Assembly: GCA_040349255.1 (NCBI GenBank)
Contig: JBEQUE010000005.1
Coordinates: forward strand, 2,746-66,745
DNA from: Acidobacteriota bacterium
GTDB lineage: Bacteria > Acidobacteriota > Thermoanaerobaculia > Multivoradales > UBA5704
DNA: 64,000 nt
Reading direction: 5' to 3'
A program made the position numbers and the translations under genes. Under the pieces are notes generated by a model. The model ran no database searches, was not told where the DNA came from, and saw nothing but the letters and a program-made list of their open reading frames with translations. Shown one piece after another: positions 7,713-64,000 of the stretch; position 1 is the first letter of the stretch, and every line of letters begins with the position of its first letter.

Positions 7713-8195
7713 ATGGATCGGGCCAGAGATCGGGATAGAATGCGCGCCACTGTCCGAGGGGAGGGAACCGTGATCGGCAGAGCGTTTGCCCGGATGCTGC
7801 TTCTCCTGACCGTCGTGGGAATTGTCCTGGGGACTGCGGGATGCCAGAACCCGCAGCGTCCGCCATTCATCTTCGAGATCCCGGCCGGCTACAAGGGCTG
7901 GGTGTCGGTGCAGTTCTTCCGCCCGGACTGTCCGGAGGTGCCGCTCGAAGGGGAGAAGGTGGTGGTCAAGATCCCGGCGAACGGCAGCCTGTGCACGGGC
8001 ACGCCGCTCGGCTTCGGGGAGGTCCGGGACGAGTACTACTACGTGGATGCTTCGGGCAACCGGACCGACGCCAGGGCCGACGTCCGGCAGGAGCACGTGG
8101 CGATCGAGGGCGCGGCCCCGAAGAAGATCTTCGAGCGCTTCTTCGTCGGCACCGAGGCCGAGCTCAAGACATCGACCGAGCCCCGCTCCGAGTGA
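7713..8195 (+). CDS. Hypothetical small lipoprotein/secreted protein (start uncertain)
   Basis: N-terminus RAFARMLLLLTVVGIVLGTAGCQNP resembles a lipoprotein signal. No recognisable domain. An internal GTG/ATG start near 7770-7790 is plausible. The 3' end overlaps the convergent caspase gene. Confidence 0.5.
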   Translation: MDRARDRDRMRATVRGEGTVIGRAFARMLLLLTVVGIVLGTAGCQNPQRPPFIFEIPAGYKGWVSVQFFRPDCPEVPLEGEKVVVKIPANGSLCTGTPLGFGEVRDEYYYVDASGNRTDARADVRQEHVAIEGAAPKKIFERFFVGTEAELKTSTEPRSE

Positions 8196-9855
8196 CTCGG
8201 CCCTGCGCGCGGCCCGCCGGGCGCCGCCGGACCCGGAAGCGGCGCTCGATGGTGATCCAGTCGTAGCCGCCGCGCGTCGCGCTGAAGCTCGCCCGGGCCT
8301 CGCGGGTGTCGCCGCGCACGGCCTGGAACAGCGAGGACAGGTCGGTCTCCCGGGTGGTGGCGAAGAGCTTCAGGAACTCCTCGCTTCCATCCGCGGCTCC
8401 ATCCGGCACGAAGAGGTCCAGGCGGTTTTCCGAGAATGTGCCGATCTCGATCGTGCGGCCCGGGGCCAGGGGGTCGCTCACCCCCGGCGCCGGATAGATC
8501 TGGTCGACCTTGCCGGAGAGGCCGAAGTCCAGGACATAGATGTAGAGCGGCTCGGCGTGGCGGTTGACCACGCCGAAGGAGATCCGGTCCCCCTCCTCCA
8601 CTTCGGCGCCGTCGTCGAGACGCTCCCAGCGGCCCTTCTTCAGGATGCCCAGGTTGAAGTCGACCTTGCCGCGCAGCGAGCTGTGCTCGTTGCGGATGGC
8701 CAGGGCGTCCCGGTAGCGCCGCCGGCGACTGTCCAGGCCCGAGTCGCCGCCGGCGCTCTCCTCCACCGCCCGGCACCAGCGGCCGATCGCGCCCGGCTCC
8801 GCCTCGTCCAGGATGCGGGCGGTGGCCGTCATGCCCAGCACCGAGATCACCTCGACGCGGCCGAGGGTCTCGGCAGCACTCTTCACCTGCGGCGGATGGA
8901 CGGTCCAGACCGACCCCTCGGACACGCCGCAGGCGGCGCCTCCGCCCAGGACGACGCGGTCGGCCTCGCGCCGGTGGATCGGGAGGAAACGCATCGGCAC
9001 CAGCTCGTCGAGGCCGAACAGCTCGCGATCGCGCGCGCCCTCGAGCTGGGGCTGCTGCTGGGCGAAGTCCTCGTTCACCCGGGAGGAGACCGGTTCGAAA
9101 ACGTCGCGATAGGTCGGGCAGGCGCCGTCGGGGAGGCTTTCGAGCTCCTGGAGCAGATTCCAGGTCAGGGCTCCGTGGCTCCGGTCGCCGAGGACGAGCT
9201 CGTTCGCGCACTCCGTGTCTCGGCAGGCGGCGATCGCGACATGGCGGATGAACGAGGCCGGGCCGTCCTTGACGTCGCGCATCCTGCGCTGCGCGGGATC
9301 GGGCCGGCGCGTGTCGGCCTTCACCTGGCGGATCCGGGATGGCCGGGGTTTGTCGTCCCTCTTGGTCCGCGCGGTGCTGATCGTGCCCGAGTGGCAGCAG
9401 TCGAGGATCAGCGTGACGTTCGGGGTCTTCCGGGTGAGCGCCGCGACCCGCTCCTGGAGCTCGGCGCCGGAGACGTCCCGGTTCGGGTGGGGGTCCTCGT
9501 GGCCGCTGTCATGGGCGACGAACGTCTCCTCCATGGCGCTGGCCCGACTGATGCTCTCCTCCAGGGCTGTCCGCTGGGACCCGTGGCCGCTGTAGTGGAC
9601 GACCACGGCGTCGTTCTCCCGCACCTGTCCGACCAGGGCGTCCAGGGCGTCCAGGATGCCCTGGCGCGTGGCCTGCTCGTCGAGGAGCAGCTCGATCTGG
9701 CCGGCCGGGAAGCCGAAGCGCGTCTCCAGCAGGGCGGCGACCTCGCGGGCGTCGCGCACGCAGCCTTCGAGCTGCGACTCCGGGCGGAGGTTCGGATACT
9801 TGTCGATGCCGATGATCAGGGCCCTGCGGTTCTGTTTCGGCTGGTCGTGGGTCAT
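8164..9855 (-). CDS. Caspase-family (peptidase C14) protein with DUF4384-like C-terminal domain
   Basis: RALIIGIDKYPN, the catalytic His in VVVHYSGHGSQ and Cys in LILDCCHSG. The C-terminal YIYVLDFGLSGKVDQIYPAPG is DUF4384-like. Start taken at MTHDQPKQ (9855). The track's 9921 start would overlap the divergent gene. Confidence 0.85.
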   Translation of the reverse strand: MTHDQPKQNRRALIIGIDKYPNLRPESQLEGCVRDAREVAALLETRFGFPAGQIELLLDEQATRQGILDALDALVGQVRENDAVVVHYSGHGSQRTALEESISRASAMEETFVAHDSGHEDPHPNRDVSGAELQERVAALTRKTPNVTLILDCCHSGTISTARTKRDDKPRPSRIRQVKADTRRPDPAQRRMRDVKDGPASFIRHVAIAACRDTECANELVLGDRSHGALTWNLLQELESLPDGACPTYRDVFEPVSSRVNEDFAQQQPQLEGARDRELFGLDELVPMRFLPIHRREADRVVLGGGAACGVSEGSVWTVHPPQVKSAAETLGRVEVISVLGMTATARILDEAEPGAIGRWCRAVEESAGGDSGLDSRRRRYRDALAIRNEHSSLRGKVDFNLGILKKGRWERLDDGAEVEEGDRISFGVVNRHAEPLYIYVLDFGLSGKVDQIYPAPGVSDPLAPGRTIEIGTFSENRLDLFVPDGAADGSEEFLKLFATTRETDLSSLFQAVRGDTREARASFSATRGGYDWITIERRFRVRRRPAGRAQGRVTRSGARSMS

Positions 9856-9908
9856 GTCGGGTGAGACCCGGTTCAACAAGGGTTGTGTAGGAGATAGACT
9901 ATGAGTCC

Positions 9909-10406
9909 ATGAACAACTCAACTCCCTCTATCGTAGGCACGTGGGCCCTGGTCGAAGCCTGGGACATCGGCGACGACCCGAACGACCCGACCAAGAAGAC
10001 CTATCCCTGGGGCGATCCGCCGGCAGGCTACTGGGTCTTCGACTCGAGCAGCCATTTCAGCCTGATGATTTCCCAGAACCCGCCGCTGGCCATCCCGGCC
10101 GACCCGTTCTCGGGAAGCCCTCAGCCCAGTTGGCTGACCCCCACGGCACCGTGGACCGTGCCGTACGCTCTGCTGATCGCCACGTTCGCCACCGCCAACC
10201 CCTATGCCTACTTCGGGACCTACACCGTCGAGCTCGACAACCCGAATCCCAACCAGAGCGGCACGCTCCTCCTCACGGTCTTCTCCGACGTGATGCGCGC
10301 CTACACCGGCACCGTGCAGAGCCGGCCCTTCCAGTTCGACGGGCCCGACTTCCTGAATGTGGGTGTTTCAGGCCAGTATCTAAGGCGTTTGCAACGTTTG
10401 ACCTGA
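9909..10406 (+). CDS. Lipocalin-like domain protein (hypothetical)
   Basis: The N-terminal IVGTWALVEAWD ... PAGYWVFDSSSHFSLMISQ pattern is typical of bacterial lipocalin-like domain proteins. Divergent from the caspase gene with ~53 bp between the starts. Confidence 0.6.
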   Translation: MNNSTPSIVGTWALVEAWDIGDDPNDPTKKTYPWGDPPAGYWVFDSSSHFSLMISQNPPLAIPADPFSGSPQPSWLTPTAPWTVPYALLIATFATANPYAYFGTYTVELDNPNPNQSGTLLLTVFSDVMRAYTGTVQSRPFQFDGPDFLNVGVSGQYLRRLQRLT

Positions 10407-10659
10407 TTGACGCGATTCAAGAGGCGCCATAAAGTAGCCAGGTCGATCAAGCTTAAGTACTTCGCCTGCTCATCGGGTCGCGCCTTCGGGCGCCGAGGAC
10501 TCCAGGAAGAGGTACGGACGACTCACGAATGAACAACGGGGCCGGCTGAGCCTGCCACTGCGGAGAGACGCGCTTCGCTATCCAGCGGGCCCGGCTGGAA
10601 AGGCCGGCGCTTCCTCGCCGCGGCTCTCCGGCCAGATCAATGTGGAGGCCGACTGATCC

Positions 10660-12417
10660 ATGAGCGCCAACTCCGGCAATCTTCTCTTCAATACGGTCAG
10701 CTACAACGTCGGTTCACTGCTCGACCAGATCGATCTGGGCAGTGTCGGCCTGCCGGATATCCAGCGGCCGTTTGTCTGGAAGAATGCGAAAATCCGCGAT
10801 CTCCTGGACTCGATGTACCGCGGCTTCCCCGTAGGTTATCTCCTGTTCTGGCAGAACGACCATGCCGAAGGATCGAGGGGCATCGGCGTCGACGGCAAAC
10901 AGAGGCACTCAAGCCTCCTCATCGTCGACGGGCAGCAGCGGTTGACGTCGCTCTACGCAGTCATCAGGGGAAAGAAGGTCCTCCGTGAGGACTACAGCGA
11001 AGAACACATCGAGATCGCGTTCCACCCTCTGGACGAGAAGTTCGAGGTGGCCGACGCCGCGATCCGCAAGGACAAGCACTGGCTGCCGAACATCTCGCGG
11101 CTCTGGTCGTCCGACACCGACCTGTTCGAGCTCGTGGACGAGTATCTCGAAGGACTGCGGCACACGCGGGAGCTCAGCACCGACGAAACCAGAAGATGCC
11201 GACAGAACATCAAGAGGCTCCAGGGTCTCGTAAACTACCCTTTCCAAGCTCTGGAGCTTCTGGCAACAGCCAGCGAGGAACAGGTCAGCCATGTGTTCGT
11301 CCGTATCAACAGCAAGGGGCAGCGGCTGAACGAGGCGGACTTCATCCTCACGCTGATGTCGGTTTACTGGGATGAAGGACGGCACGACCTCGAGCGGTTC
11401 TCGCGCGCAGCCAAGAAGTCCGACAAGAAACCTGGGCCCTACAACCACTTCCTCCAGCCCGCGCCGGACCAGTTGCTGCGGGCAGCGATCGGCTACGGCT
11501 TCAAGAGGGGACGGCTGCAATACGTCTATTCCCTCCTGCGCGGCAAGGATCTGGAAACAGGCAAGTTCAGCGAGGAGCACCGGGAAGCGCAGTTTGCCCG
11601 CCTGAAGGAGGCGCAGGCGGGCGCACTCAACCTCCAGCACTGGAAGGATTTCCTCAAGTGCCTGATGCATGCCGGCTTCCGCAGCGGCAAGGTCATCACC
11701 TCCGAGACCACCGTGCTCTACAGCTACGTGTTCTACCTGCTCGGCCGGGCCGAATACAAGATTTCGGAGAGCGCGTTGCGGCGGACCATCGCGCGCTGGT
11801 TCTTCTTCGCGAGCCTCACCGGCCGCTACACGAATTCGCCCGAATCGGCCCTGGAGAGCGACCTCATCCAGCTCCGGGAGGTGAGCGACGCTGCCGGGTT
11901 CAAGGCGCGCCTCGACCGCAACATCGAGGCGCAGCTCACGGACGACTTCTGGCGCGTGACCCTGCCGAGCGACCTTGACTCGGCCGCGGCGCGCAGCCCT
12001 TCCCTGATGGCCTACATCGCGGCGCTGTGCCTGCTGGATGCGAAAGTCCTGTTTTCCAGGCTGAGCGTGAGCTCCCTGCTCGACCCGACCACGGACGCGT
12101 ACAGGAACTCGCTCGAAAGGCATCACCTCTTCCCCAAGGACTGGCTGAAGAAACATGGCTTTCCGGACGTCCAGAAAACCAACCAGATCGCCAACTACGC
12201 CCTGCTCGAATGGCCGGACAACTCCGACATCTCCGCGCACTCTCCCGCGGAGTACTGGCCGCAGTTCAAGAACCGCTACTCTGCCGCGGAGTGGCGCACG
12301 ATCCGCTACTGGCACGCGCTGCCCGAGCAGTGGGAGACGATGAAGTACGAGGAGTTCCTGAAGAAGCGCCGGGGCCTCATCGCCAAGGTCGTCCGCGACG
12401 GATTCGAAAGGATCTGA
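10660..12417 (+). CDS. DUF262/DUF1524 protein, GmrSD-like (Type IV restriction family)
   Basis: N-terminal ParB-like DUF262 motifs (LPDIQRPFVW, LLIVDGQQRLTSL). C-terminal His-Me/HNH-like DUF1524 region (LERHHLFPKDWL ... NQIANYALLEWPDNSDIS). The upstream intergenic DNA is visibly lower in GC. Confidence 0.8.
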   Translation: MSANSGNLLFNTVSYNVGSLLDQIDLGSVGLPDIQRPFVWKNAKIRDLLDSMYRGFPVGYLLFWQNDHAEGSRGIGVDGKQRHSSLLIVDGQQRLTSLYAVIRGKKVLREDYSEEHIEIAFHPLDEKFEVADAAIRKDKHWLPNISRLWSSDTDLFELVDEYLEGLRHTRELSTDETRRCRQNIKRLQGLVNYPFQALELLATASEEQVSHVFVRINSKGQRLNEADFILTLMSVYWDEGRHDLERFSRAAKKSDKKPGPYNHFLQPAPDQLLRAAIGYGFKRGRLQYVYSLLRGKDLETGKFSEEHREAQFARLKEAQAGALNLQHWKDFLKCLMHAGFRSGKVITSETTVLYSYVFYLLGRAEYKISESALRRTIARWFFFASLTGRYTNSPESALESDLIQLREVSDAAGFKARLDRNIEAQLTDDFWRVTLPSDLDSAAARSPSLMAYIAALCLLDAKVLFSRLSVSSLLDPTTDAYRNSLERHHLFPKDWLKKHGFPDVQKTNQIANYALLEWPDNSDISAHSPAEYWPQFKNRYSAAEWRTIRYWHALPEQWETMKYEEFLKKRRGLIAKVVRDGFERI

Positions 12418-12511
12418 GGCCGACGCCTGAGGCTGGCGGCAATGGGCACAACCCGGCCCCGAGGTGTGCGGAGCACCCCTGGTGCCCCGCACACCTCCGG
12501 CAGCCCACCTC

Positions 12512-12598
12512 TCCCTACAGGCAGGCTCCGGGGCGGGACGGCGGCAGCCTTGGACACGGTGGCCGCCGTCCCTCTCAATTGTCAAGGAACCATGGTTC
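12512..12598. repeat. Inverted-repeat element, left copy (contains an 11-bp GC hairpin and a GAAC-CATG-GTTC palindrome)
   Basis: Region 12535-12596 matches the reverse complement of 13303-13363 at roughly 85 percent identity by hand alignment, with weaker similarity and an indel further out. The hairpin is GGGACGGCGGC (12535-12545) paired to GCCGCCGTCCC (12562-12572) with a 16-nt loop. It is followed by AGGAACCATGGTTCTT. Confidence 0.6.
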
Positions 12599-12900
12599 TT
12601 CCCGAGTGGCCAGGAAGAAGAGCCCGCTGAAGCAGTTCTTTTACGAGCCACCCGGGCAACACGTTCATGATACGCGGGCCGGCTCTGTTTTGAGCCTACC
12701 CTTTCAAAAAGGCACAAAAGTGCCCAAAACGACCCTCCAGAAAACAGAGCGAGCTCCAATCAAACGGGCACGAAATTGGTCTGGCCCGGTTTGTCACAAA
12801 ACAGGGGCCTCCGGCAACTATATATAGAGGACACCGGAATGCCGGGTCCGAAGGACTCCGAGGCGGCCAGATGTGCCGATCTGGCATGAGACAACACCTG

Positions 12901-13221
12901 GGAACCTTCTACGAGACGACGGAACGTTCTACGAGCCAAGGGAACGTTCTATATCAGAATGCAAGGTTCTATGAGCCGACGCAACGTTCTATGACGAAAT
13001 GGAAGGTTCTACGAGCCCCTGGAAGGTTCTACGGCGAAATGGAAGGTTCTACGAGCTGGCGGAACGTTCTACGGAGGAAATGGAAGGTTTTATGAGCCGA
13101 TGGAACGTTCTACACCGAAATGGAAGGTTCCAGGAGCCGATAGAACGTTCTATGCCGGAACGCAAGGTTCTACGGGCCGATGGAACGTTCTACGCCGAAA
13201 TACAACCTTCCGCTGCGATAA
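12901..13221. repeat. Phased tandem array 1: 16 units of 20 bp (one of 21), core GGAA[C/G]GTTCTAYG
   Basis: Units start at 12901, 12921, 12941, 12961, 12981, 13001, 13021, 13041, 13061, 13082, 13102, 13122, 13142, 13162, 13182 and 13202 (the last is degenerate). The right half shows a 40-bp A/B super-repeat (GGAAGGTTCTAYGAGCCGAT + GGAACGTTCTAYGCCGAAAT). The core GAACGTTC is palindromic. Confidence 0.9.
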
Positions 13222-13302
13222 ATCGGCCTCCCCGGCCGCAGGCAAGGTAACGGATCGGCAGGCTGGCTCGTAGAAGGACTCTGTAGGGATAGTCGTAAGG
13301 TT

Positions 13303-13393
13303 TCATGGTTCCTTGACAATCGAGAGGAATGGCGGCTGCCGGGTCCAAGGCCGCCGCCGTTCCGAACTGTTTCACCGGCCGGCGGGCATGTAG
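13303..13393. repeat. Inverted-repeat element, right copy
   Basis: Reverse-complement match to 12512-12598. The hairpin is GGAATGGCGGC (13326-13336) paired to GCCGCCGTTCC (13353-13363), with a 16-nt loop sharing GTCCAAGGC with the left copy. One stem position shows a compensatory change relative to the left copy (G-C to A-T). Confidence 0.6.
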
Positions 13394-13606
13394 CTGACGC
13401 CGAGCGGTCCGCTGATCTTCCAGGCGGCGGGCGCGGCGCCAAGGCGACACTCGCTCGCCGAATGCGACAGGATTTCCCTGGGAGACCTCGTCATCCAGGT
13501 GGCCAATCCCAGGATGTTGTACCGTATGAAGAAGGACACGGTCCGGTTGCAGGATCGCGCCGACGCGGCCCGGATTCGTGAGGCGTTCAATCTGGAAGAC
13601 GACTGA
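13394..13606 (+). pseudogene. Possible 3' remnant of a nucleotidyltransferase-like gene
   Basis: The open frame after stop 13391 reads ...ECDRISLGDLVIQVANPRMLYRMKKDTVRLQDRADAARIREAFNLEDD*. This resembles only the C-terminal tail of small NTase-fold proteins (vaSlEDLI.MK..tgR.kD..D). There is no N-terminal domain, and the frame abuts the right inverted repeat. Its stop overlaps the next ATG (TGATG). Confidence 0.35.
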
Positions 13607-13827
13607 TGTCTGTCCGCAAATACCGATCCGTGAACGACATGCCGGGGGCCCGTCCCCTGCCGCCGCTCGATCCGGAGAACCTGCGCATCGCGTGCGAGCT
13701 GACCGAGCTCGCCTACGCCCTCCACCCCTGGAAGCTCGAGCCCGGGGTCCGCAAGTTCCGCTCCGCCGAGGAAGCTCAACAGCACAGGCAGGAATGGGAG
13801 AAGCGCCAGGTCCGCGCCAAACGTTGA
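13606..13827 (+). CDS. Hypothetical small protein (73 aa)
   Basis: ORF MSVRKYRSVNDMPGARPLPPLDPENLRIACELTELAYALHPWKLEPGVRKFRSAEEAQQHRQEWEKRQVRAKR. Codon usage looks genuine and it is coupled to the upstream remnant. No domain recognised. Confidence 0.45.
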   Translation: MSVRKYRSVNDMPGARPLPPLDPENLRIACELTELAYALHPWKLEPGVRKFRSAEEAQQHRQEWEKRQVRAKR

Positions 13828-13871
13828 ATCGATGGAGGCAGCCTCGGGCCGGGCCGCTCTTCGGATATGCA

Positions 13872-14612
13872 TCATGGATGCAGAACGCGAACGGTCACCT
13901 CCTCGGCCGGCTCGGAGGAGGCCCGGCCGGCCAGGCGAAGCCGGATCTCTCCCGCCGGGAGCAGGCTCCGGGGCAGGAGGACGCGGACGGTGCCGGAGTC
14001 GGAGAGCAGACCGTCCAGGACACCGGTCGGGCGGCCGGACGCGTCGAGGATCTCCAGCCGCAGGCCGGTCTCCGTCTGGAGCCGGGCGGAGTTGAGGATC
14101 AGGGCTATGCCGACCGCCGGTACGCGGATCTCCCGGGGAGGCTCGGGCCCGCGGTGGACGCCCGGCATGTCGACGACCTCCAGGGGCAGGTTGGGGATGG
14201 CCCGCGGCGAGAGGCTCCAGAAGGACAGGGCCACGGCCGCCAGCAGGGACGCGGCGGCGAACGCGTAGGCCGTACGGAGCGAGGCGAGGACCGGCGGCAG
14301 CCGCCAGCCCGCAGGCTGCGGAGGCCGCGTCTGAGGCTCGGCGAAGATCTGTCTTCGCAGCTCCTGCCAGGAGACGGCCACGTCGATGCCGGTCTCACCC
14401 TGGACGGGCTCCAGGAACTGCTCCAGATCGAGGAGCAGGTCCGGGCAGTCGAAGCAGACGCCGAGATGCCGGCAGACACGGGCGGCGCGACGGGCGGAGA
14501 GCCGGCCGTCGCGCCAGGCGGTGAGCTCCTCGGGAGACGGGTGCCAGCCGGCCTCGGGACCGAGGCGCTCCTCGCGGCCGAGGAGGCGGAAGGCGAGGGC
14601 GAGGTCCGTCAT
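13872..14612 (-). CDS. Anti-sigma factor (zinc-finger-like N-terminus, one TM helix)
   Basis: CRHLGVCFDCPDLLLDLEQF motif and the TM segment AYAFAAASLLAAVALSFWSL. Lies directly downstream of an ECF sigma gene. Confidence 0.7.
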   Translation of the reverse strand: MTDLALAFRLLGREERLGPEAGWHPSPEELTAWRDGRLSARRAARVCRHLGVCFDCPDLLLDLEQFLEPVQGETGIDVAVSWQELRRQIFAEPQTRPPQPAGWRLPPVLASLRTAYAFAAASLLAAVALSFWSLSPRAIPNLPLEVVDMPGVHRGPEPPREIRVPAVGIALILNSARLQTETGLRLEILDASGRPTGVLDGLLSDSGTVRVLLPRSLLPAGEIRLRLAGRASSEPAEEVTVRVLHP

Positions 14613-56791: not shown

Positions 56792-58054
56792 ATGGAGAAG
56801 GTGGTCACAGCGATCCTCGGTGGTGGGCAGGGCAGCCGTCTCTGGCCCTTGACGCGGCACCGCGCCAAGCCGGCGGTGCCGATCGGCGGCAAGTTCCGCC
56901 TCATCGACATCCCGATCAGCAACAGCCTGCACGCCGGCATCGACCGGATCTTCGTCATCACGCAGTTCAACAGCGCGAGCCTGCACCGCCACATCGCGCA
57001 GACCTACCGCTTCAGCGCCTTCTCGCTCGGCTTCGTGAACATCCTGGCCGCGGAGCTGACCACGGAGCGCAAGGACTGGTTCCAGGGCACGGCGGACGCG
57101 GTGCGCCAGTGCCTGCCGCGCCTGCTGGAGTCGGACCCGCCCGAGGTGCTGATCCTGTCGGGCGACCAGCTCTACATGATGAACATCTCGGAGTTCATCC
57201 AGACGCACCGCAACCGGCAGGCCGACCTGACGATCGCGGTCAAGCCGGTGACGCGCGAGGAGGCGACGGGCTTCGGCATCCTGCGCCTCGACCCCTCGGG
57301 CCGCATCATCGAGTTCGTGGAGAAGCCCAAGGACCCGGCCCTGCTCGACGAGCTCGCGCTCGACGCGCAGACCCAGGCCGCGCTCGGCTTCCCGGCGCCT
57401 CAGGGTTCGTACCTCGCGAGCATGGGCATCTACGTGTTCAAGTCCGAGGTGCTGACCGAGCTCCTCGTGGGCAGCACGACGGTCGACTTCGGCCGCGAGG
57501 TGATCCCCCAGTCGCTCGGCCAGTACAAGGTCTACGCCTATCCCTACGAAGGCTACTGGACGGACATCGGCACGATCCCGAGCTTCCACCGGGCGAACCT
57601 GGACCTCACGCTGCCGCTGCCGCCGCTCAACATGTACGACCCCGAGCTGCGGATCTTCACCCACCCGCGCTTCCTGCCGGGCACGAAGGTCAACGAGTGC
57701 TTCGTGCGCTGGTCGATCCTGAGCGAGGGGAGCATCCTGTCGGGCAGCCGGGTGGAGGACTCGATCATCGGCGTCCGCGCCGTGGTGCGGGAAGGCGCGG
57801 TCATCGAGCGCACCGTGGTGATGGGCGCCAACTCCTGGGAGAGCCTCAACGGCAGCCCCGAGATCCCGATCGGCATCGGCCGCGACTGCCACATCCGCAA
57901 CGCGATCCTCGACTTCAACGTCCGCATCGGCGACGGCTGCCGGCTGCTCAACGAGGCCGGGGTCGAGAACGCCGACAACGAGCAGTACGCGATCCGCGAC
58001 GGCATCATCGTGGTCATGAAGAACGCCGTCCTGCCTCCGGGGACCGTGATCTGA
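56792..58054 (+). CDS. glgC: Glucose-1-phosphate adenylyltransferase
   Basis: ILGGGQGSRLWPLTRHRAKPAVPIGGKFRLIDIPISN, WFQGTADAV and a left-handed beta-helix C-terminus. Confidence 0.95.
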   Translation: MEKVVTAILGGGQGSRLWPLTRHRAKPAVPIGGKFRLIDIPISNSLHAGIDRIFVITQFNSASLHRHIAQTYRFSAFSLGFVNILAAELTTERKDWFQGTADAVRQCLPRLLESDPPEVLILSGDQLYMMNISEFIQTHRNRQADLTIAVKPVTREEATGFGILRLDPSGRIIEFVEKPKDPALLDELALDAQTQAALGFPAPQGSYLASMGIYVFKSEVLTELLVGSTTVDFGREVIPQSLGQYKVYAYPYEGYWTDIGTIPSFHRANLDLTLPLPPLNMYDPELRIFTHPRFLPGTKVNECFVRWSILSEGSILSGSRVEDSIIGVRAVVREGAVIERTVVMGANSWESLNGSPEIPIGIGRDCHIRNAILDFNVRIGDGCRLLNEAGVENADNEQYAIRDGIIVVMKNAVLPPGTVI

Positions 58055-59493
58055 TGCGCATTTGCCAGGTCGCGGCGGAGGTGGCTCCGTTCGCCAAGAC
58101 AGGCGGGCTGGGCGACGTGGTCGGAGGCCTGTCGGCGTACCTCGGCCGCGCGGGCCACGATGTCCGCATCGTGATGCCGTTCTACGGCCAGCTCGCGCGG
58201 CGGCCGGAGACTTTCATCCCGGTGGACTTCATCCAGCGCGTGCCGATCCCGATGGGCGGCCGGCTGTTCTCGGTCTCGGCGCTCACCTGCAAGCTGCCCG
58301 GCAGCGACGTGGACGTCTATTTCGTCTCCTGCCCCGAGCTCTATGCGCAGGAAGGGATCTATCACGGCGACGGGTCAGACGGAGTCCGCTTCGGCGTGCT
58401 CACCCGGGCCGCGTTCGAGCTCTGCCAGCGCATGGGCTGGGGCCCGGACGTCGTCCACTGCCACGACTGGCACACCGCGCTCGCGCCGGTCTATCTCAAG
58501 GCGCTGTACGACTGGGACCGGCTGTTCGACCGCACGCGGACCGTGCTGACGATCCACAACATGGCCTTCCAGGGCTATCTGTCCGCCGGATACGTGAACG
58601 ATCTCGGCCTCGGGAAGCATGGCTGGATGCTGGACACCGCGGGCGGGGCCTTCAACGTGCTCAAGAACGGGTTGATCCACGCCGACGCGATCACGGCCGT
58701 GAGCCGCACCTACGCCCGCGAGATCCAGGGCGACCAGGGCTTCGGCCTGGACTGGCTGCTGCGGGCGCGCGCGGACCGGCTGTTCGGCATCGTCAACGGC
58801 GTGGACTACGGCGAGTGGGATCCGCAGCGCGATCCGCACCTGCCGTTTCACTACTCCGCCGACGACCTCGCGGGCAAGCGGGAGATGAAGCGGACGCTCC
58901 TCAAGGAGACCGGGATCGGGGAGGGGGATCTCGAAACGCCGATCGTCGGAATCGTCTCGCGCCTGACTGCTCAGAAAGGTTTTGAATTGGGCTTCGACGT
59001 CCTGCCGGCCCTTCTGGCACGGCGGAACTTCCGCCTGATCGCGCTCGGCAGCGGCGAGCCGAAGTACGAGGACTTCTTCCAGTGGCTCCAGTGGCGCTTC
59101 GCGGGCCGGGCCTGGTTCTACCGCGGCTTCCACAACCCGCTCGCGCACTGGATCGAGGCGGGTGCCGACCTCTTCCTGATGCCGTCGCGCTTCGAGCCCT
59201 GCGGCCTGAACCAGATGTACAGCCTGCGCTACGGCACGCCGCCGATCGTCCGGAAGACCGGCGGCCTGGCCGACACGGTCGAGCCCTGGAACGCGCAGAC
59301 CGGCCAGGGCACCGGCTTCGTCTTCGAGCACTTCGACGCCGAAGGGCTACGCTGGGCTCTGGACACGGCGCTCGACGCCTGGGAGGACCGCGCCTCCTGG
59401 GGCCGCCTCATGCGCAACGGCATGGAGAAGGACTACTCCTGGGACGTGCAGGGCCGGGAGTACGAAGAGCTCTACCGGCGGTTCGCGGGATAG
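58054..59493 (+). CDS. glgA: Glycogen synthase (ADP-glucose type)
   Basis: MRICQVAAEVAPFAKTGGLGDVV and PSRFEPCGLNQMY. The ATG overlaps the glgC stop (TGATG). It is only the last 479 codons of track ORF 56263..59493. Confidence 0.95.
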   Translation: MRICQVAAEVAPFAKTGGLGDVVGGLSAYLGRAGHDVRIVMPFYGQLARRPETFIPVDFIQRVPIPMGGRLFSVSALTCKLPGSDVDVYFVSCPELYAQEGIYHGDGSDGVRFGVLTRAAFELCQRMGWGPDVVHCHDWHTALAPVYLKALYDWDRLFDRTRTVLTIHNMAFQGYLSAGYVNDLGLGKHGWMLDTAGGAFNVLKNGLIHADAITAVSRTYAREIQGDQGFGLDWLLRARADRLFGIVNGVDYGEWDPQRDPHLPFHYSADDLAGKREMKRTLLKETGIGEGDLETPIVGIVSRLTAQKGFELGFDVLPALLARRNFRLIALGSGEPKYEDFFQWLQWRFAGRAWFYRGFHNPLAHWIEAGADLFLMPSRFEPCGLNQMYSLRYGTPPIVRKTGGLADTVEPWNAQTGQGTGFVFEHFDAEGLRWALDTALDAWEDRASWGRLMRNGMEKDYSWDVQGREYEELYRRFAG

Positions 59494-59519
59494 AGGGGCG
59501 CAGACGTCTGCGCCCCTCC
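59494..59519. terminator. Bidirectional intrinsic-terminator-like hairpin between glgA and the convergent Cys-rich gene
   Basis: GAGGGGCGCAGAC-GTCTGCGCCCCTC is a perfect 26-nt GC-rich palindrome directly after the glgA stop. The flanks are only weakly T-rich. Confidence 0.6.
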
Positions 59520-59526
59520 AGGCTCT

Positions 59527-59856
59527 TCAGTTGGCCGCCATCGGCGGAGCGACGTCCGCATTGAGGCAGGCGGCGGCCGGGGCGAGGGTGGGCGCACCGA
59601 GACCGATCTCGGTGAGGGACTTCTGCGTCTGCGTCTGCGCGGACTGGGCGGCCGCGCACTGGATGTAGTAGCAGCTACAGGGCCCGTTGCTGGCGCAGAG
59701 CGCTCCCGTGGGAGTCGGGGAATCCTGGCACTGCCGACAGAGGGGGCCCACCTTGACGCAGATGCCGTAGCAATCGGCGGAGGCCGATCCAGCGAGGCCA
59801 AAGAGAGCGGCGAAGACGGCGAGGCAGAGAACGAGACGGGTTCCGGTCAATCTCAT
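59527..59856 (-). CDS. Small secreted cysteine-rich protein (109 aa; 8-Cys core)
   Basis: AAGGAG SD and the signal peptide MRLTGTRLVLCLAVFAALFGLAGSASA. The core is CYGICVKVGPLCRQCQDSPTPTGALCASNGPCSCYYIQC (C-x3-C-x6-C-x2-C-x10-C-x5-C-x-C-x4-C), followed by an Ala/Gln/Thr/Pro-rich tail. Confidence 0.6.
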   Translation of the reverse strand: MRLTGTRLVLCLAVFAALFGLAGSASADCYGICVKVGPLCRQCQDSPTPTGALCASNGPCSCYYIQCAAAQSAQTQTQKSLTEIGLGAPTLAPAAACLNADVAPPMAAN

Positions 59857-59975
59857 AGGCTCCTTTCCGTGAGGAATCAGTCCTCACGCATAGCAGTATA
59901 TCTACGAGGTCGAACGCCTGAAGTTGCGAAAGCATGGCGAGCCCGGAGGGCGCTCCGGGCTCGCCGGGCTTCCGG

Positions 59976-60278
59976 CTATCGGGTCGCCGGTGTCATCGGA
60001 GTGGTCGTCGCGGGGGAGCCGGGTTCCGGAGCGAAGATCCCGAAGGCTTCCGGCGTCACGGCCGCCTCGGTCGTTGAGGCGGAGGGCCACCAGCAGATCT
60101 CGTCCAGGCAGTGGCAGGCGCTCATCTGGCGGCAACCCGAATAGTCGTCTCCGGTGTAGACGCAGCCCCAGCAGTTCTCCGAGATCTCCGTACAGAGATA
60201 TCCGCACGCCTGGGCTGCCGGAGCGCAGAGGGCGAATAGCAGGGCGAGTCCGATCGCGGCCTTCGTCATCGGTTTCAT
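59976..60278 (-). CDS. Small secreted cysteine-rich protein (100 aa; paralogue of 59527..59856)
   Basis: GAAGGAG SD and the signal peptide MKPMTKAAIGLALLFALCAPAAQA. The core is CGYLCTEISENCWGCVYTGDDYSGCRQMSACHCLDEIC (C-x3-C-x6-C-x2-C-x9-C-x5-C-x-C-x4-C), followed by a Thr/Pro/Ala-rich tail. Confidence 0.6.
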   Translation of the reverse strand: MKPMTKAAIGLALLFALCAPAAQACGYLCTEISENCWGCVYTGDDYSGCRQMSACHCLDEICWWPSASTTEAAVTPEAFGIFAPEPGSPATTTPMTPATR

Positions 60279-60387
60279 CGGGATCTCCTTCGAGCGACCC
60301 GGAAGGGATCATTCCCTTCGAGAAGACCGCAATCTTAGCAAGTGGCTATCCGCTCATCCAGAGATCCGGACGTCGCCCGAGATGCGG

Positions 60388-60600
60388 TCACGCCGCGACG
60401 TCGATGTACTCCACACGGCTGGAAGGCTGAGGCGCGGGGATGCCGTCCTCCCCCATGCCCTCCAGATGGAATTCGATGGCCTCCCGAATCTGCTGCTCAA
60501 CTTCCGCCAGGGTAACGCCCGTGGTGACGCATCCCGGAAGATCCGGGACGTAGGCGGAGTAGTTGTTTTCAGCTCGCTCGATGACTACCGCATAGCGCAT
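60388..60600 (-). CDS. HicB-family (UPF0150) protein, short form without DNA-binding domain
   Basis: MRYAVVIERAENNYSAYVPDLPGCVTTGVTLAEVEQQIREAIEFHLEGM is the canonical HicB N-domain. No hicA-like ORF is adjacent. Confidence 0.8.
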   Translation of the reverse strand: MRYAVVIERAENNYSAYVPDLPGCVTTGVTLAEVEQQIREAIEFHLEGMGEDGIPAPQPSSRVEYIDVAA

Positions 60601-60634
60601 GACAACCTCAACGGAACACCCAGAGAGCAGTAAG

Positions 60635-62074
60635 TCAGGAGTACCGGCTTAGGGAGCTTGGCCTGGGCAGGTCACCCCGGATGAGCACGATACCTAGCAC
60701 GATTGGCCGATCGCCGCCGGTCGGTGGGGAGATGAATCTCACCCCGATATCGTTTTCCAGGCTTCCGGGCGCGGCCCCTTTCTGAGGCCGGCAGAGGACC
60801 GCCAGCACGCCGCACCTGCGGTCGCTTCCAACGACATACTGCGAGAGCTGCTGCCCTGAGGCTTCGAGCGCACCTTCCAGATCGACCGGCTGCGGATCGA
60901 CCTTCAGCTCCAGGCGGACGCCATGGAAGGAGAGATCGGTGATGCCGCCAGCGACATGAGAGTGTTCGTCCAGATCCGAGCCGATGTTCCGGTTGGTTCT
61001 CAGCCTCGATTTCATCTCTTTCTGGAAATCCGCTTCCGACCAGTCTCCGGGGAAGATGTTGTCCGCAAGGCTCTCATGGGCGACGAGCCCCACGGCGCCG
61101 AGAAGCGCCAGAAAGGAGGCCAGTTCCTCATCAGGCAGGCCGTGAGGCCGCGCCTGGTCCCGGGCATGCCGGACAGCCTGGGCAACGGCCCTGTTCCCGC
61201 CCCAGAGGTGGTCGTGCTCCTCGCAGCGGAAACGAAGGTGGCTTTGGCCCTGCACGACCACCTTCGGCATCTCACCCTCCGCGGGAAGCAGGTGGACGCC
61301 ATACGAAATTTCAAGAGGCCGGGCGAGGGAGTCGTGTGGGAGCCGAACGCAGAGCCTTCCCGTCCGGGAGAACGTCAGGGCGCCCGAGGAGCTCTCCTCG
61401 ATGGTGAACGTCGGCGCTTCGATCGTTCCATAGGGCTCGACCGTGAGGGGGGAGACCTCGACCGCCTTAGCCCTAGGGGGCCATTGAGAAAGCCGGACCT
61501 CGACGCTGAGGTCGTAAAGGAGGTTTGCCCGGATGTCCTTAGGTTCTCCGACTGGGTCGGTCCCCAAGCTGAACCTAAGGACTGCGACGACCGCCCTGGG
61601 TTCGGGCCGTGCCTTGCCGGTCAGTTCCGAAGTATCAAGCTTCGCCGGGGCCGGCGGACCCGGAAAGGGCAGGGGCAGTCGGACCGCGAGGAGATCCTCG
61701 AAGCAGGCCTCGACCTCCTCCTCGGCCGATACCTCCGTCAGTTTCCGCGCCACCTTCTCCACATCCGGACCGGACGGGCCGCCGACTCCCCGCCGGACCA
61801 CGTCCCGCGCCCGCTGCCGGGCAGCCCGCAGGTGGCGGTCGGCATCCATCTCCGCGTCCCGCACGGCTGCACCCCAAAGGTGAAGGTGCCCCACGGCACG
61901 GACGAGCTCTCCATAAGCGGAGAAGGCTATCCCGGCACCGGGCTCCAAGCGCTTGGACAGGCTTTCGAGCTCGTCGGCGACCACGGCCAGTTCGTTCGCC
62001 GGGCGGGCACCCGCCTGCACACTGCGGAGCGCCTCAATCGCCTGAAGCCGGGGCTGGTACTCTGGGAAAAACAT
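60635..62074 (-). CDS. Hypothetical protein with C-terminal PD-(D/E)xK-like nuclease motif (about 480 aa; start uncertain)
   Basis: The C-terminal SEADFQKEMKSRL ... HVAGGITDLSFHGVRLELKVD ... QQLSQYV fits the E...D...E-x-K...Q restriction-endonuclease-fold pattern. The N-terminal two-thirds is unrecognised. Candidate starts are ATG 62074 (overlaps the upstream gene by 41 nt) and GTG 62128. GC is visibly lower. Confidence 0.55.
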   Translation of the reverse strand: MFFPEYQPRLQAIEALRSVQAGARPANELAVVADELESLSKRLEPGAGIAFSAYGELVRAVGHLHLWGAAVRDAEMDADRHLRAARQRARDVVRRGVGGPSGPDVEKVARKLTEVSAEEEVEACFEDLLAVRLPLPFPGPPAPAKLDTSELTGKARPEPRAVVAVLRFSLGTDPVGEPKDIRANLLYDLSVEVRLSQWPPRAKAVEVSPLTVEPYGTIEAPTFTIEESSSGALTFSRTGRLCVRLPHDSLARPLEISYGVHLLPAEGEMPKVVVQGQSHLRFRCEEHDHLWGGNRAVAQAVRHARDQARPHGLPDEELASFLALLGAVGLVAHESLADNIFPGDWSEADFQKEMKSRLRTNRNIGSDLDEHSHVAGGITDLSFHGVRLELKVDPQPVDLEGALEASGQQLSQYVVGSDRRCGVLAVLCRPQKGAAPGSLENDIGVRFISPPTGGDRPIVLGIVLIRGDLPRPSSLSRYS

Positions 62075-63995
62075 CCCTCCGCTCCCTGTTGATCTCCTCG
62101 TCACGGGCAATCTCCGCTTCCAGAGCACGAATTTCCTGGATCAACGCGCTAGCGTCATGCGGCCTCCGCTGCTCCAGAGCCAATTCCAGCTCCAATGCCT
62201 TGGCATAGACCGCGAGCCGCAGACGTTGCGGCAAACGCGACCGCTCGTTCCCACAGGCAAGGACGGCAGCATTGGCGAGTCTGGCCGCAGCGTCCCATTC
62301 TCCATGCTCGTTGAGCAGAGAGAGGAGCGGTATCACGGCCATGGGCCTCCCGTGTGCCACTTCCTGGCCGACCGTTACAATGCGCTCTGCAACACGGCTT
62401 ACTTCCTCCCCGGGGAGCCTCTTCAGTTGTTCGACGACGAACTCACTCCGATGGTCAAATGGCTGACCCGTGATGGGCAAGCTCAGTAGCAGGTCCCCAT
62501 ATCCAGGACAGCTCCGCAGGAAGTGGCCAGCCTCACGCACGAAACCATACGCGTGCTCCTCCTCTAGCCTGCGCCCGATCGCCAACGAGTAGCGCTGGGC
62601 CCTGCCGAACAGTTGTTGGTCCTCCGACGCCAGAGCCAACAGCTTGGAGAGTGCTCTGGCAAGGAAGTTCCCATCCAATCCCTGGTCTGCGTAGACTCGA
62701 ACAAGCGCGCTCACCCGCTGGAGCGCAAGGGTTCGATAATGCTCGGGCAAAGTGGCGTTCTGAAGGGAGTAGAGGGCTCGCTGGTGAACCCCCATATATG
62801 GATCGCCAAGCAGGATGAGAAAACTCTCATGGAGAAGAGAGGGAAGGTTCTCGGCTCCGAGATGGTCACAAAGATCCTTGTATGCGACACATGCTGCGGA
62901 CCTGACGAGGATCGAGGCATGCGTCATGGCCGAATAGACCTCCGGAAGAACCCGAGACTGCTGCACGTGGCTGGCGCGGATCTCTCCCAGGACTTCGACC
63001 AGCATCGCCCTGAAGCGGTCAGCAAGAGGTGGCAGGGGATGCAACGTCTCGAAGATCAGCGTCAATACCTTGTTTCGAACGTCCGAGTCGGGATGATGCC
63101 GGGCTATCCACACAACAAACTCCATCAGAGCGTTCGCAAGGCCAAGGAGAGCCATCTGTCTTGCTCCGTGGAACAGCTCCTGCAATCCCTTCGGCCGTGG
63201 ATCGCTGAGGATTGAAGAACCTTGGGCTGCAGCGTCCGCCTGCTGGCACGCCACCGCTGCTACTCCGAGCAATGTCTCGACCGATTCCGCGGCAAGGTCC
63301 CACGGGATTAGATATAAATCCTGATCCCGTAGGAATTCGTTCAAGCGCTGCAGCCGCGAATCCTCAGGAAGAGCCGCAAGGACCCTCAGGATCATTTGAA
63401 ATGCATTGGCCTGGACAGGGCTCGAGTTCGACGACCTCTCTCGTTCCTTGGATGAGTGCCGGCCCGAGGCATCACGGATCTGAAAGAAGTCCATAAGGGT
63501 CCTGAGCACTCCGCTCCTCACGTTCTCGTCACCATCCTCCAGATGGCGGTCGAGGAGGTCTTCGATGTCCCGAGGAAAGTGAAGAAGCAGTGCGGCCAAG
63601 GCCCAGGAGGCAGCCGCGGATGTGGGACCCGCGTCGTATGAATCGTCGGGCAACCTGAAAGAACCGATGAGGCATGCGCCAAGACCCCTAGCATCGAGGG
63701 AGGCGCCACCGTTCAGGAACGTGACGATTGCGGACGCAGCGGCTCGCCTTGGATTTTTATCCTCCTGGGAGAGCGCATTCTTGAGACCTGCCTCTACCAC
63801 CTCCGGCGCGGCCCTGTGTGCAGCCAGGAGGGGGTCTGGATGGCTCGCTCTGAACCGGTCGAACACCGAACCACTAGGCTCCTCCGCCAGAACGAGCAGA
63901 CCGGGAAAGGCTGCCTGGATCTCTGCGGTATGAGATTCATCCAGTTGCCTGCCGGCGATTTCAACAGACTCCTCCATGGCTTCATGCCTTGCCAC
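62034..63995 (-). CDS. HEAT/ARM-like helical-repeat protein (at least 653 aa; may extend past the right edge)
   Basis: All-helical composition with recurrent HEAT-like D..VR..A/V..L segments (DGDENVRSGVLRTLMDFF, DSDVRNKVLTLIFETL, ILVRSAACVAYKDLCDHLG, DPYMGVHQRALYSLQN). The listed start is a GTG at 63995, but the frame stays open to position 64000. Confidence 0.55.
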   Translation of the reverse strand: MARHEAMEESVEIAGRQLDESHTAEIQAAFPGLLVLAEEPSGSVFDRFRASHPDPLLAAHRAAPEVVEAGLKNALSQEDKNPRRAAASAIVTFLNGGASLDARGLGACLIGSFRLPDDSYDAGPTSAAASWALAALLLHFPRDIEDLLDRHLEDGDENVRSGVLRTLMDFFQIRDASGRHSSKERERSSNSSPVQANAFQMILRVLAALPEDSRLQRLNEFLRDQDLYLIPWDLAAESVETLLGVAAVACQQADAAAQGSSILSDPRPKGLQELFHGARQMALLGLANALMEFVVWIARHHPDSDVRNKVLTLIFETLHPLPPLADRFRAMLVEVLGEIRASHVQQSRVLPEVYSAMTHASILVRSAACVAYKDLCDHLGAENLPSLLHESFLILLGDPYMGVHQRALYSLQNATLPEHYRTLALQRVSALVRVYADQGLDGNFLARALSKLLALASEDQQLFGRAQRYSLAIGRRLEEEHAYGFVREAGHFLRSCPGYGDLLLSLPITGQPFDHRSEFVVEQLKRLPGEEVSRVAERIVTVGQEVAHGRPMAVIPLLSLLNEHGEWDAAARLANAAVLACGNERSRLPQRLRLAVYAKALELELALEQRRPHDASALIQEIRALEAEIARDEEINRERRDVFPRVPAPASGD

Positions 63996-64000
63996 GGCCT

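What the first reader, a model, noticed from the sequence alone, without database searches (positions are those of the whole stretch)
60388..64000. Lower-GC island at the right edge: HEAT-repeat protein + PD-(D/E)xK-like protein + orphan HicB, a candidate uncharacterised defence-type module
Three co-directional minus-strand genes lie in a visibly AT-richer block. The first is a helical HEAT/ARM-like repeat protein of at least 653 aa, whose frame is still open at the window edge. The second is a protein of about 480 aa that overlaps it by about 41 nt. Its C-terminus fits the restriction-endonuclease fold signature (E...ITDLSFHGVRLELKV...QQLSQY), and its N-terminal two-thirds is unrecognisable. 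The third, 34 nt downstream, is a 70-aa HicB-type protein with no HicA partner and no DNA-binding extension. A large repeat-type (sensor-like) protein coupled to a nuclease-fold effector, with a small antitoxin-like neutraliser, is the general layout of many recently described anti-phage systems. I cannot match this combination to any named one. The module is truncated by the window, so an NTPase or other component may lie upstream.
Basis: inference. Interest (0 to 1): 0.7.

Follow-up and report, generated by a model that had tools for sequence, protein, structure and literature searches.

The report
Olokun anti-phage system beside leftover HicB
The two large genes are a divergent copy of Olokun, a known two-gene bacterial anti-phage system made of a HEAT/adaptin-like protein (OloA) and a nuclease (OloB). 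The small HicB gene next to them is an unrelated leftover of a toxin-antitoxin pair, so this is an ordinary member of a named family.

Summary
Three co-directional minus-strand genes lie in a lower-GC block (GC 0.63 vs 0.68; GC3 0.66-0.77 vs 0.93-0.97 in glgA/glgC). The "unnamed three-gene module" reading does not hold.

- **The nuclease gene.** The 479-aa protein (60635..62074) matches the PADLOC OloB model (3.5e-17). It keeps an invariant E..D..ExK..QxxxY nuclease motif.
- **The HEAT protein.** It is cut by the window edge. It is 83% identical to an 873-aa orthologue that matches PADLOC OloA (2.8e-11).
- **The pairing.** In all 28 genome loci with a full-length OloB relative, an OloA relative lies directly upstream on the same strand. 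Three loci carry the two as one fused ORF. All 21 intact neighbours tested match OloA. The proteobacterial pairs match at about 1e-61 (OloA) and 1e-54 (OloB).
- **What Olokun is.** It is a named, tested defence system: a 2:2 complex of adaptin-like OloA and the PD-(D/E)XK nuclease OloB that cleaves phage DNA.
- **No third gene.** No third gene is conserved, and no NTPase was found among the conserved neighbours.
- **HicB is not part of it.** Related acidobacterial contigs carry the same hicB beside the same glgA-glgC genes. One has an intact hicA where Olokun sits here. The two homology blocks meet at 60611..60623.

Verdict: a new, divergent member of a known kind; low interest.

The parts
62034..64000 (-). 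oloA, 3' part. It encodes the C-terminal 654 residues of an adaptin/HEAT-like OloA of about 873 aa. The N-terminal ~218 residues, including a conserved Cys/His-rich CxxC region, lie beyond the window edge.
   Evidence: The frame is open at the edge. It is 83% identical to residues 219-873 of L001:7420-10041, which matches PADLOC OloA at 2.8e-11. It aligns collinearly to the PADLOC-positive OloA of Paraburkholderia (L015) at E=5e-14. Weak HEAT hits. 21 of 21 family members match OloA, and Adaptin_N matches 5.
60635..62074 (-). oloB, complete, 479 aa (52 kDa). It overlaps oloA by 41 nt.
   Evidence: Identical to NCBI MAG protein P0001. Matches PADLOC OloB at 3.5e-17 over residues 3-392. 22 of 22 homologues match OloB, best 8.7e-49. 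AF2 model mean pLDDT 85.9.
61685..62074 (-). OloB N-terminal helical domain (residues 1-130), the predicted OloA-binding part.
   Evidence: Six helices in the AF2 model. The role is inferred from the AlphaFold3/mass-photometry model of PfOlokun in 10.1101/2025.07.10.664194.
61226..61591 (-). OloB middle beta-sandwich domain (residues 162-283).
   Evidence: Strands 162-283 in the AF2 model. Foldseek matches to Ig-like, integrin and CARDB beta-sandwiches.
60677..61192 (-). OloB C-terminal PD-(D/E)xK-type nuclease domain (residues 295-466). Catalytic-motif codons: E347 61034-61036, D380 60935-60937, E389 60908-60910, K391 60902-60904, Q409 60848-60850, Y413 60836-60838.
   Evidence: These residues are invariant in 22 homologues and the codons were verified. 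In the domain model (pLDDT 86.9, pTM 0.86) the motifs fall on an alpha-beta-beta-beta-alpha-beta order of elements. A PADLOC LmuA model matches this region at 6.9e-09. The Foldseek PDB search of the domain was not significant.
60611..60623 (.). Junction between the Olokun cassette and the resident hicB block.
   Evidence: DNA homology to the Olokun locus L001 runs 63998..60624. Homology to the glgA-hicB contigs L035-L038 starts at 60610. The alignment shows the switch.
60388..60600 (-). hicB, 70 aa, a solo HicB-family antitoxin gene. It is not part of Olokun. It is the remnant of a hicAB pair at a variable site beside glgA.
   Evidence: Pfam HicB_lk_antitox 4.4e-13. NCBI names it a HicB family antitoxin, and the search returned its maximum of 8000 matches, mostly 70 aa. 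Syntenic copies sit beside glgA-glgC in L035 and L037. L037 has HicA (Pfam 6.7e-22) 8 nt upstream of hicB.

Best explanation
Window 60635..64000 carries a divergent acidobacterial copy of the two-gene Olokun anti-phage system.

- oloA encodes a protein of about 873 aa: an N-terminal Cys/His-rich region followed by an adaptin/HEAT-like solenoid. The window holds only its last 654 codons.
- oloB overlaps oloA by 41 nt. It encodes a 479-aa protein with a helical N-terminal domain, a beta-sandwich domain and a C-terminal PD-(D/E)xK nuclease (E347, D380, E389-x-K391, Q409-xxx-Y413).

Proposed mechanism, inferred from the studied Pseudomonas system: OloA binds the helical N-terminus of OloB to form a 2:2 complex of roughly 296 kDa. 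The two nuclease domains then sit side by side and cut invading phage DNA while sparing host DNA. The solenoid is the likely sensing or regulating scaffold.

The cassette was acquired horizontally. It has low GC3 and a different genomic context in its closest relative. It sits at a variable site next to glgA, immediately upstream of a resident hicB, in the position where a relative carries hicA. HicB is therefore a bystander: an orphaned antitoxin gene that may be co-transcribed with oloAB but is not a component of the system.

Shown here: homology, gene pairing and fusion, motif conservation, and the homology junction. Inferred: complex formation, DNA cleavage and anti-phage activity for this particular copy.
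For: **Family assignment**
- OloB matches at 3.5e-17.
- The full-length OloA orthologue, 83% identical to the window fragment, matches OloA at 2.8e-11.
- The same homologue family includes proteobacterial pairs with near-full-length PADLOC matches: OloA 8.4e-61 and 2.2e-61, OloB 1.2e-54 and 6.5e-54. Their sizes are the same as here.
- The window's OloA fragment aligns directly to one of those OloA proteins (E=5e-14).

**Pairing**
- In 28 of 28 loci with a full-length OloB relative, an OloA relative lies directly upstream on the same strand.
- Three loci have a single fused ORF. The fused L027 protein matches both models.
- 21 of 21 intact OloA neighbours match PADLOC OloA.
- The 41-nt overlap is the same in L001 and in the window.

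**Nuclease**
- E, D, ExK and QxxxY are invariant.
- They sit on a confident alpha/beta model.

**Published function**
- Olokun forms a 2:2 complex of adaptin-like OloA and PD-(D/E)XK OloB of about 278 kDa.
- It degrades T7, SECphi17 and SPO1 DNA but not E. coli or plasmid DNA.
- The predicted mass here is 2 x (96 + 52) kDa.

**Horizontal origin**
- GC3 is 0.66-0.77 against 0.93-0.97 in glgA/glgC.
- L001 has unrelated flanking genes.

**HicB exclusion**.
Against: - The window's own OloA fragment gives no PADLOC OloA match at E<=1. Its assignment rests on its orthologue and on pairwise alignment.
- PADLOC matches for this acidobacterial clade are weak and partial. OloB covers profile positions 5-373 of 556. 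OloA covers 17-270 of 596.
- Foldseek of the isolated C-terminal domain against the PDB found nothing significant (best E=0.21). Restriction-endonuclease-like folds appeared only among weak hits.
- No Pfam family and no PDB sequence relative was found for OloB.
- No experiment exists for this clade, and activity is known only from a preprint on a Pseudomonas system whose sequence I could not obtain.
- hicB lies only 34 nt downstream with a GAGG upstream of its ATG (read from the sequence). No terminator-like site lies between the genes. Co-transcription, and some functional link, therefore cannot be excluded.
Confidence: 0.88

Rival explanations
1. One reading: a three-gene, unnamed defence module in which the HicB-like protein neutralises the nuclease-fold effector, possibly with a further NTPase upstream.
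For: The three genes are co-directional. The gap is 34 nt, an RBS-like GAGG precedes the hicB ATG (read from the sequence), and no terminator-like site lies between. All three genes lie in the lower-GC block. No hicA is present.
Against: - The 87%-identical orthologous locus has an unrelated 87-aa gene after oloB.
- A HicB-like ORF was found in only 1 of 31 loci, about 7 kb away on the opposite strand.
- It is also absent in L032/L033 and L034.
- No family is conserved within 4 kb in more than 3 of 28 loci.
- DNA homology to the Olokun cassette ends 11 nt after the oloB stop.
- hicB homology belongs to the glgA-side block shared with relatives that have no Olokun gene beside hicB and carry hicA or a DUF4145 gene in that position.
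- The two large genes match a named system.
Confidence: 0.05
2. A Lamassu-type system: the nuclease protein is an LmuA effector.
For: PADLOC LmuA model PDLC03853 matches the C-terminal ~135 residues (6.9e-09 here; 18 of 22 homologues, best 1.7e-14).
Against: - The match covers only the last 135 of 655 profile positions. The rest of the protein matches OloB.
- The partner gene matches OloA in 21 of 21 cases and never matched an LmuB model.
- No other gene is conserved nearby.
- The match most likely reflects a shared nuclease-type domain. That reading is an inference.
Confidence: 0.02
3. A housekeeping scaffold-nuclease pair, for example in DNA repair or RNA processing, rather than a defence system.
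For: HEAT/adaptin solenoids scaffold nucleases in cellular complexes. The whole-protein Foldseek search gave low-TM hits to Integrator complex chains. No experiment exists for this clade.
Against: - Distribution is patchy across Acidobacteriota, Nitrospira, Gemmatimonadota, Proteobacteria, a Spirochaetia MAG and Thermodesulfobacteriota.
- The genomic context differs even between 87%-identical copies.
- GC3 is foreign to the host.
- Neighbours are toxin-antitoxin and defence genes: VapBC and DUF433/DUF5615 in L034, and a methyltransferase plus HNH protein in L030.
- The family has tested anti-phage members.
- The Integrator matches have TM of about 0.2.
Confidence: 0.04

Closest known systems
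Olokun defence system (OloA/OloB), attributed to Millman et al. 2022 by reviews PMC13223576 and PMC12926258; biochemistry of the Pseudomonas system PfOlokun in bioRxiv 10.1101/2025.07.10.664194
   Same: - Two genes, with oloA first and overlapping oloB.
- OloA is an adaptin/HEAT-like solenoid.
- OloB has an N-terminal helical domain and a C-terminal PD-(D/E)XK nuclease.
- Subunit sizes fit a 2:2 complex of about 280-300 kDa.
- Sequence homology to both PADLOC models is bridged by strongly matching proteobacterial members of the same homologue set.
   Different: - This is a divergent acidobacterial clade. It is only about 30% identical to proteobacterial OloB, and its PADLOC matches are weak and partial.
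- An automated caller would not find OloA in the truncated window.
- No functional data exist for this clade.
PADLOC candidate model 'HEAT_CxxC_PD-DEXK' (PDLC01150)
   Same: The model's name describes the domain set seen here: a HEAT solenoid, a CxxC region and a PD-DExK nuclease. That set occurs in one polypeptide in the fused L014, L016 and L027 proteins. Three OloA relatives match the model weakly (best 9.9e-04).
   Different: The matches are marginal. The window proteins themselves do not match it. I could not inspect the model's origin.
Lamassu LmuA effector (PADLOC PDLC03853)
   Same: The C-terminal ~135 residues, which carry the nuclease motifs, are recognisably similar.
   Different: No LmuB model was matched and no other partner gene is conserved nearby. 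The N-terminal two thirds and the partner protein are Olokun-type.
HicAB type II toxin-antitoxin module
   Same: The 70-aa protein is a typical short HicB (Pfam 4.4e-13). A syntenic relative (L037) has the canonical hicA-hicB pair with the same 70-aa HicB.
   Different: hicA is missing here. Its position is occupied by the Olokun cassette.

Membership tests
Olokun | An OloB homologue is present | tested here: met
   PADLOC OloB 3.5e-17, residues 3-392 against profile positions 5-373 of 556. 22 of 22 homologues match, best 8.7e-49. Family members L015 and L024 match at about 1e-54 over profile positions 3-455.
Olokun | An OloA (adaptin/HEAT-like) homologue is present | tested here: met
   The window fragment alone gives no PADLOC match. 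It is 83% identical to L001 OloA, which matches at 2.8e-11. It also aligns to the PADLOC-positive L015 OloA at 5e-14. 21 of 21 family members match OloA, and Adaptin_N and HEAT Pfam hits occur.
Olokun | oloA and oloB are adjacent and co-directional as a two-gene unit | tested here: met
   41-nt overlap in the window and in L001. 28 of 28 loci are paired and 3 are fused. No third gene is conserved.
Olokun | A PD-(D/E)XK active site in the OloB C-terminal domain | tested here: met
   E347, D380, E389, K391, Q409 and Y413 are invariant in 22 sequences. They fall on an alpha-beta-beta-beta-alpha-beta order of elements in the model.
Olokun | Restriction-endonuclease-like fold of the C-terminal domain, by structure comparison | tested here: inconclusive
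   Foldseek of the domain model against the PDB gave a best E of 0.21. EndoMS, AF1548, BstYI, EcoP15I, DdmD and EcoT38I appear only as weak hits with TM 0.24-0.28.
Olokun | 2:2 OloA-OloB complex, selective phage-DNA cleavage, anti-phage protection | not testable with these tools
   Known only for PfOlokun. The predicted subunit masses here are 96 and 52 kDa.
HicAB toxin-antitoxin | HicB antitoxin domain | tested here: met
   Pfam HicB_lk_antitox 4.4e-13. NCBI names it a HicB family antitoxin.
HicAB toxin-antitoxin | An adjacent HicA toxin gene | tested here: not met
   No candidate ORF of 25 aa or more lies around hicB. The upstream neighbour is oloB. HicA is present in the syntenic locus L037 (Pfam 6.7e-22).
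Lamassu | LmuA together with an SMC-like LmuB (and LmuC) | tested here: not met
   Only the C-terminal 135 residues match an LmuA model. The partner matches OloA and never an LmuB model. No other gene is conserved nearby.

The most novel reading that the evidence does not exclude
After losing hicA to the insertion, the resident hicB may have been captured by the Olokun operon. It lies 34 nt downstream with its own RBS-like GAGG and no terminator-like site between the genes. It might now modulate OloB, or the expression of oloAB, in this lineage. More broadly, the 5' edge of hicB beside glgA may act as a recombination site where defence cargo is exchanged: hicA, a DUF4145 gene and Olokun each occupy that position in different relatives.
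Probability: 0.06. Interest if true: 0.45.

Novelty: new member of a known kind. Interest (0 to 1): 0.2.

Why it matters
The practical value is in annotation. Two "hypothetical proteins" in an Acidobacteriota MAG can be named OloA and OloB. The family is shown to reach Acidobacteriota, Nitrospira, Gemmatimonadota and Thermodesulfobacteriota, with members too divergent to match the models strongly.

The natural OloA-OloB fusions and the invariant motif residues give independent support for the physical complex and the active site proposed for Olokun. No sequence relative of either protein was found in the PDB.

The locus also shows how an "orphan antitoxin next to a nuclease" can mislead guilt-by-association reasoning. 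Here the adjacency comes from cargo exchange at a variable site.

Tried and rejected
- **Extending the window failed.** The exact HicB and OloB proteins are not indexed. The missing OloA N-terminus had to be inferred from L001 and L032.
- The 22-sequence alignment had no sufficiently conserved stretch. A 13-sequence alignment worked.
- **Whole-protein Foldseek of OloB.** Top hits were Integrator complex chains and Ig-like beta-sandwiches at TM of about 0.2. I treated this as domain-level noise, not homology.
- **Domain-only Foldseek** gave nothing significant.
- **PDB sequence-profile searches** with OloB, its C-terminal domain and OloA found no relatives. OloA gave only designed alpha-repeat proteins.
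- **Pfam** has no family for OloB. NCBIfam has none for either large protein.
- **Promoter and terminator scan of 59300-60800** found nothing.
- **Literature.** The 2022 preprint behind the discovery paper that reviews cite for Olokun does not use the name. The 2025 preprint has no supplementary text held, so I could not align directly to PfOloA/PfOloB or learn which residues were mutated.
- **L032's OloA.** It was called as 643 aa and briefly suggested a short form without the N-terminal region. The ORF is really 868 aa, and the gene caller had split it.
- **Rejected readings.** Lamassu and a housekeeping role were considered and rejected (see rivals).


Full report
**1. Observation**

The three minus-strand ORFs are present.
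- hicB-like: 60388..60600, 70 aa.
- A 497-codon maximal ORF at 60635..62128. Its real product is 479 aa (60635..62074), identical to the NCBI protein [quoted passage not shown] on a 67,264-bp contig.
- A HEAT-like ORF ending at 62034 and still open at base 64000.

The block is compositionally distinct. GC is 0.63 against 0.68. GC3 is 0.655 (HEAT gene), 0.767 (nuclease gene) and 0.746 (hicB), against 0.925 and 0.974 in the adjacent glgA and glgC.

Pfam gives HicB_lk_antitox at 4.4e-13 for the small protein. It gives sub-threshold HEAT hits for the large one and nothing for the middle one.

**2. Identity of the two large genes**

PADLOC models give the first lead. The middle protein matches OloB of the Olokun system (3.5e-17, residues 3-392). 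Its C-terminal 135 residues also match an LmuA model (6.9e-09). The truncated HEAT protein gives no PADLOC match.

An 87%-identical OloB orthologue lies on a 2.7-Mb ENA contig (L001), with the same 41-nt overlap to an upstream 873-aa gene. That protein is 83% identical to the window's HEAT fragment over residues 219-873. The window therefore lacks about 218 N-terminal residues. The 873-aa protein matches PADLOC OloA at 2.8e-11.

A scan of species-representative genomes with the OloB alignment returned 30 loci.
- In all 28 loci with a full-length OloB relative, an OloA relative lies immediately upstream on the same strand.
- In L014, L016 and L027 the two are a single ORF of about 1300-1360 aa. 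The L027 protein matches both models at about 1e-28.
- All 21 intact OloA neighbours match PADLOC OloA (best 1.7e-61). Five also match Pfam Adaptin_N.
- All 22 OloB homologues match PADLOC OloB (best 8.7e-49).

The Paraburkholderia (L015) and Hydrogenophaga (L024) pairs match over nearly the whole profiles: OloA at about 1e-61 and OloB at about 1e-54. Their protein sizes (858/488 and 855/484 aa) are the same as in the acidobacterial clade. The window's OloA fragment aligns collinearly to L015 OloA (E=5e-14).

The window therefore holds a divergent member of the Olokun family.

**3. Anatomy**

*OloB.* The AF2 model has mean pLDDT 85.9. It shows three parts:
- a helical N-terminal domain (residues 1-130);
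- a beta-sandwich (residues 162-283);
- an alpha/beta C-terminal domain (residues 295-466).

E347, D380, E389, K391, Q409 and Y413 are invariant across 22 homologues that are as little as 28% identical to the window protein. In the separately modelled domain (pLDDT 86.9, pTM 0.86) they fall on helix / strand 2 / strand 3 / helix, within an alpha-beta-beta-beta-alpha-beta order of elements. From general knowledge, this is the layout of RecB/Cas4-like PD-(D/E)xK nucleases.

Foldseek against the PDB did not confirm the fold. The best E was 0.21, and restriction-endonuclease-like folds appeared only among weak hits. No PDB sequence relative exists.

*OloA.* Orthologues carry an N-terminal region with invariant W26, C27, C56, N80, C81, C84 and R87, and a nearly invariant H29. 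This is a probable metal-binding CxxC module and lies outside the window. The HEAT/adaptin-like solenoid follows it.

**4. Mechanism**

The literature describes Olokun as one of the PD-(D/E)XK nuclease defence systems.
- PfOlokun purifies as a complex of about 278 kDa, modelled as 2:2.
- It degrades T7, SECphi17 and SPO1 DNA but not E. coli chromosomal or plasmid DNA. It nicks plasmid and needs micromolar protein in vitro.
- Active-site mutations in OloB disrupt the complex (10.1101/2025.07.10.664194).

The subunits here are predicted at 96 and 52 kDa, or 296 kDa for a 2:2 complex. The natural fusions support a physical complex. I infer the same mechanism for this copy. Nothing about its activity has been tested.

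**5. HicB**

HicB is not conserved with the pair.
- The gene after oloB in L001 is unrelated.
- A HicB-like ORF was found in only one of 31 loci, about 7 kb away on the opposite strand.
- L032/L033 and L034 lack it.
- No neighbour family recurs in more than three of 28 loci.

DNA homology between the window and L001 runs from 63998 to 60624 and stops 11 nt after the oloB stop codon.

The HicB protein belongs to a very large family of mostly 70-aa proteins. The search returned its maximum of 8000 matches, and the best 120 listed are 77-100% identical. In related acidobacterial contigs, hicB (82-86% nucleotide identity) lies beside the same glgA-glgC genes (88-90% identity to window 59493..57020). 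Homology to those contigs resumes at window 60610, 10 nt upstream of the hicB ATG.

At the position directly upstream of hicB:
- L037 carries an intact hicA (62 aa, Pfam HicA_toxin 6.7e-22);
- L035 and L036 carry a DUF4145 gene;
- the window carries Olokun.

The junction is therefore 60611..60623. hicB is a resident remnant of a hicAB pair at a variable site, and the Olokun cassette occupies the place of hicA. Co-transcription of hicB with oloAB remains possible: no terminator-like site was found, and a GAGG precedes the ATG. No comparative evidence supports a functional link.

**6. Comparison and novelty**

Membership in Olokun is met on homology of both proteins, gene arrangement and active-site motifs.
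- Lamassu is excluded because no LmuB partner is present.
- HicAB membership fails on the absent toxin.

This clade is divergent enough for PADLOC matches to be weak, and the MAG annotates both proteins as hypothetical. This is a new member of a known kind, not a new system.

**7. Verdict**

Confidence that this is an Olokun-family oloAB pair is about 0.88. Interest is low (0.2). The residual novel possibility is co-option of the orphaned hicB, or a hicB-anchored site of cargo exchange, at about 0.06.

Noticed in passing
window 59527..59856 (-) and 59976..60278 (-): Two small proteins (109 and 100 aa) with signal-peptide-like N-termini share the same eight-cysteine spacing, C-3-C-6-C-2-C-9/10-C-5-C-1-C-4-C. 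Neither has a Pfam match. They fill the ~890 nt between hicB and glgA, a segment that is absent in L037, where hicB abuts glgA. A relative of the first gene sits elsewhere in L038. They may be paralogous secreted Cys-rich peptides carried as variable cargo.
   Followed up: partly
window ~8160..14500: A second lower-GC island (2-kb windows at GC 0.61-0.64 against a mean of 0.68). It holds a GmrSD_N/DUF262 type IV restriction-like protein at 10660..12417 (+) (Pfam 2.3e-30). Just upstream of the island, at 8164..9921 (-), lies a caspase-domain (Peptidase_C14) protein (4.1e-26). This is probably another defence island.
   Followed up: partly
L014:3748-7635, L016:7376-11383, L027:7343-11419: Natural OloA-OloB fusion proteins of about 1300-1360 aa occur in an Acidobacteriota MAG, a Spirochaetia MAG and a Thermodesulfobacteriota MAG. 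The L027 protein matches PADLOC OloA (4e-28) and OloB (2.4e-28) in one polypeptide.
   Followed up: partly
L030:6553-10303 (Pseudomonas sp. GM74): An 86-aa OloB fragment (PADLOC 1.4e-09) lies next to a cytosine methyltransferase (1.1e-79) and an HNH protein. It appears to be a degraded Olokun remnant in a restriction-modification-type island.
   Followed up: partly
L013:11481-11999, L015:11426-11998, L029:11422-12021: In three Burkholderiales-type loci, a related ORF of about 170-200 aa follows oloB within 6-65 nt. Two of them give marginal HEPN_AbiU2 Pfam hits (about 0.006-0.008, below threshold). This may be a clade-specific accessory gene.
   Followed up: partly
L035:1748-2476, L036:417-1145, L037:2305-2493, and window 60611..60623: The position immediately upstream of hicB, next to glgA, carries different cargo in related Acidobacteria: hicA, a DUF4145 gene, or Olokun. 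Uma2, BrnA, DUF433, nucleotidyltransferase and PemK genes lie nearby. It appears to be a hotspot for toxin-antitoxin and defence cargo.
   Followed up: partly
L032:3435-6041: The public gene call splits this OloA into a 643-aa protein plus a spurious 171-aa gene on the opposite strand. The ORF is really 868 aa.
   Followed up: yes
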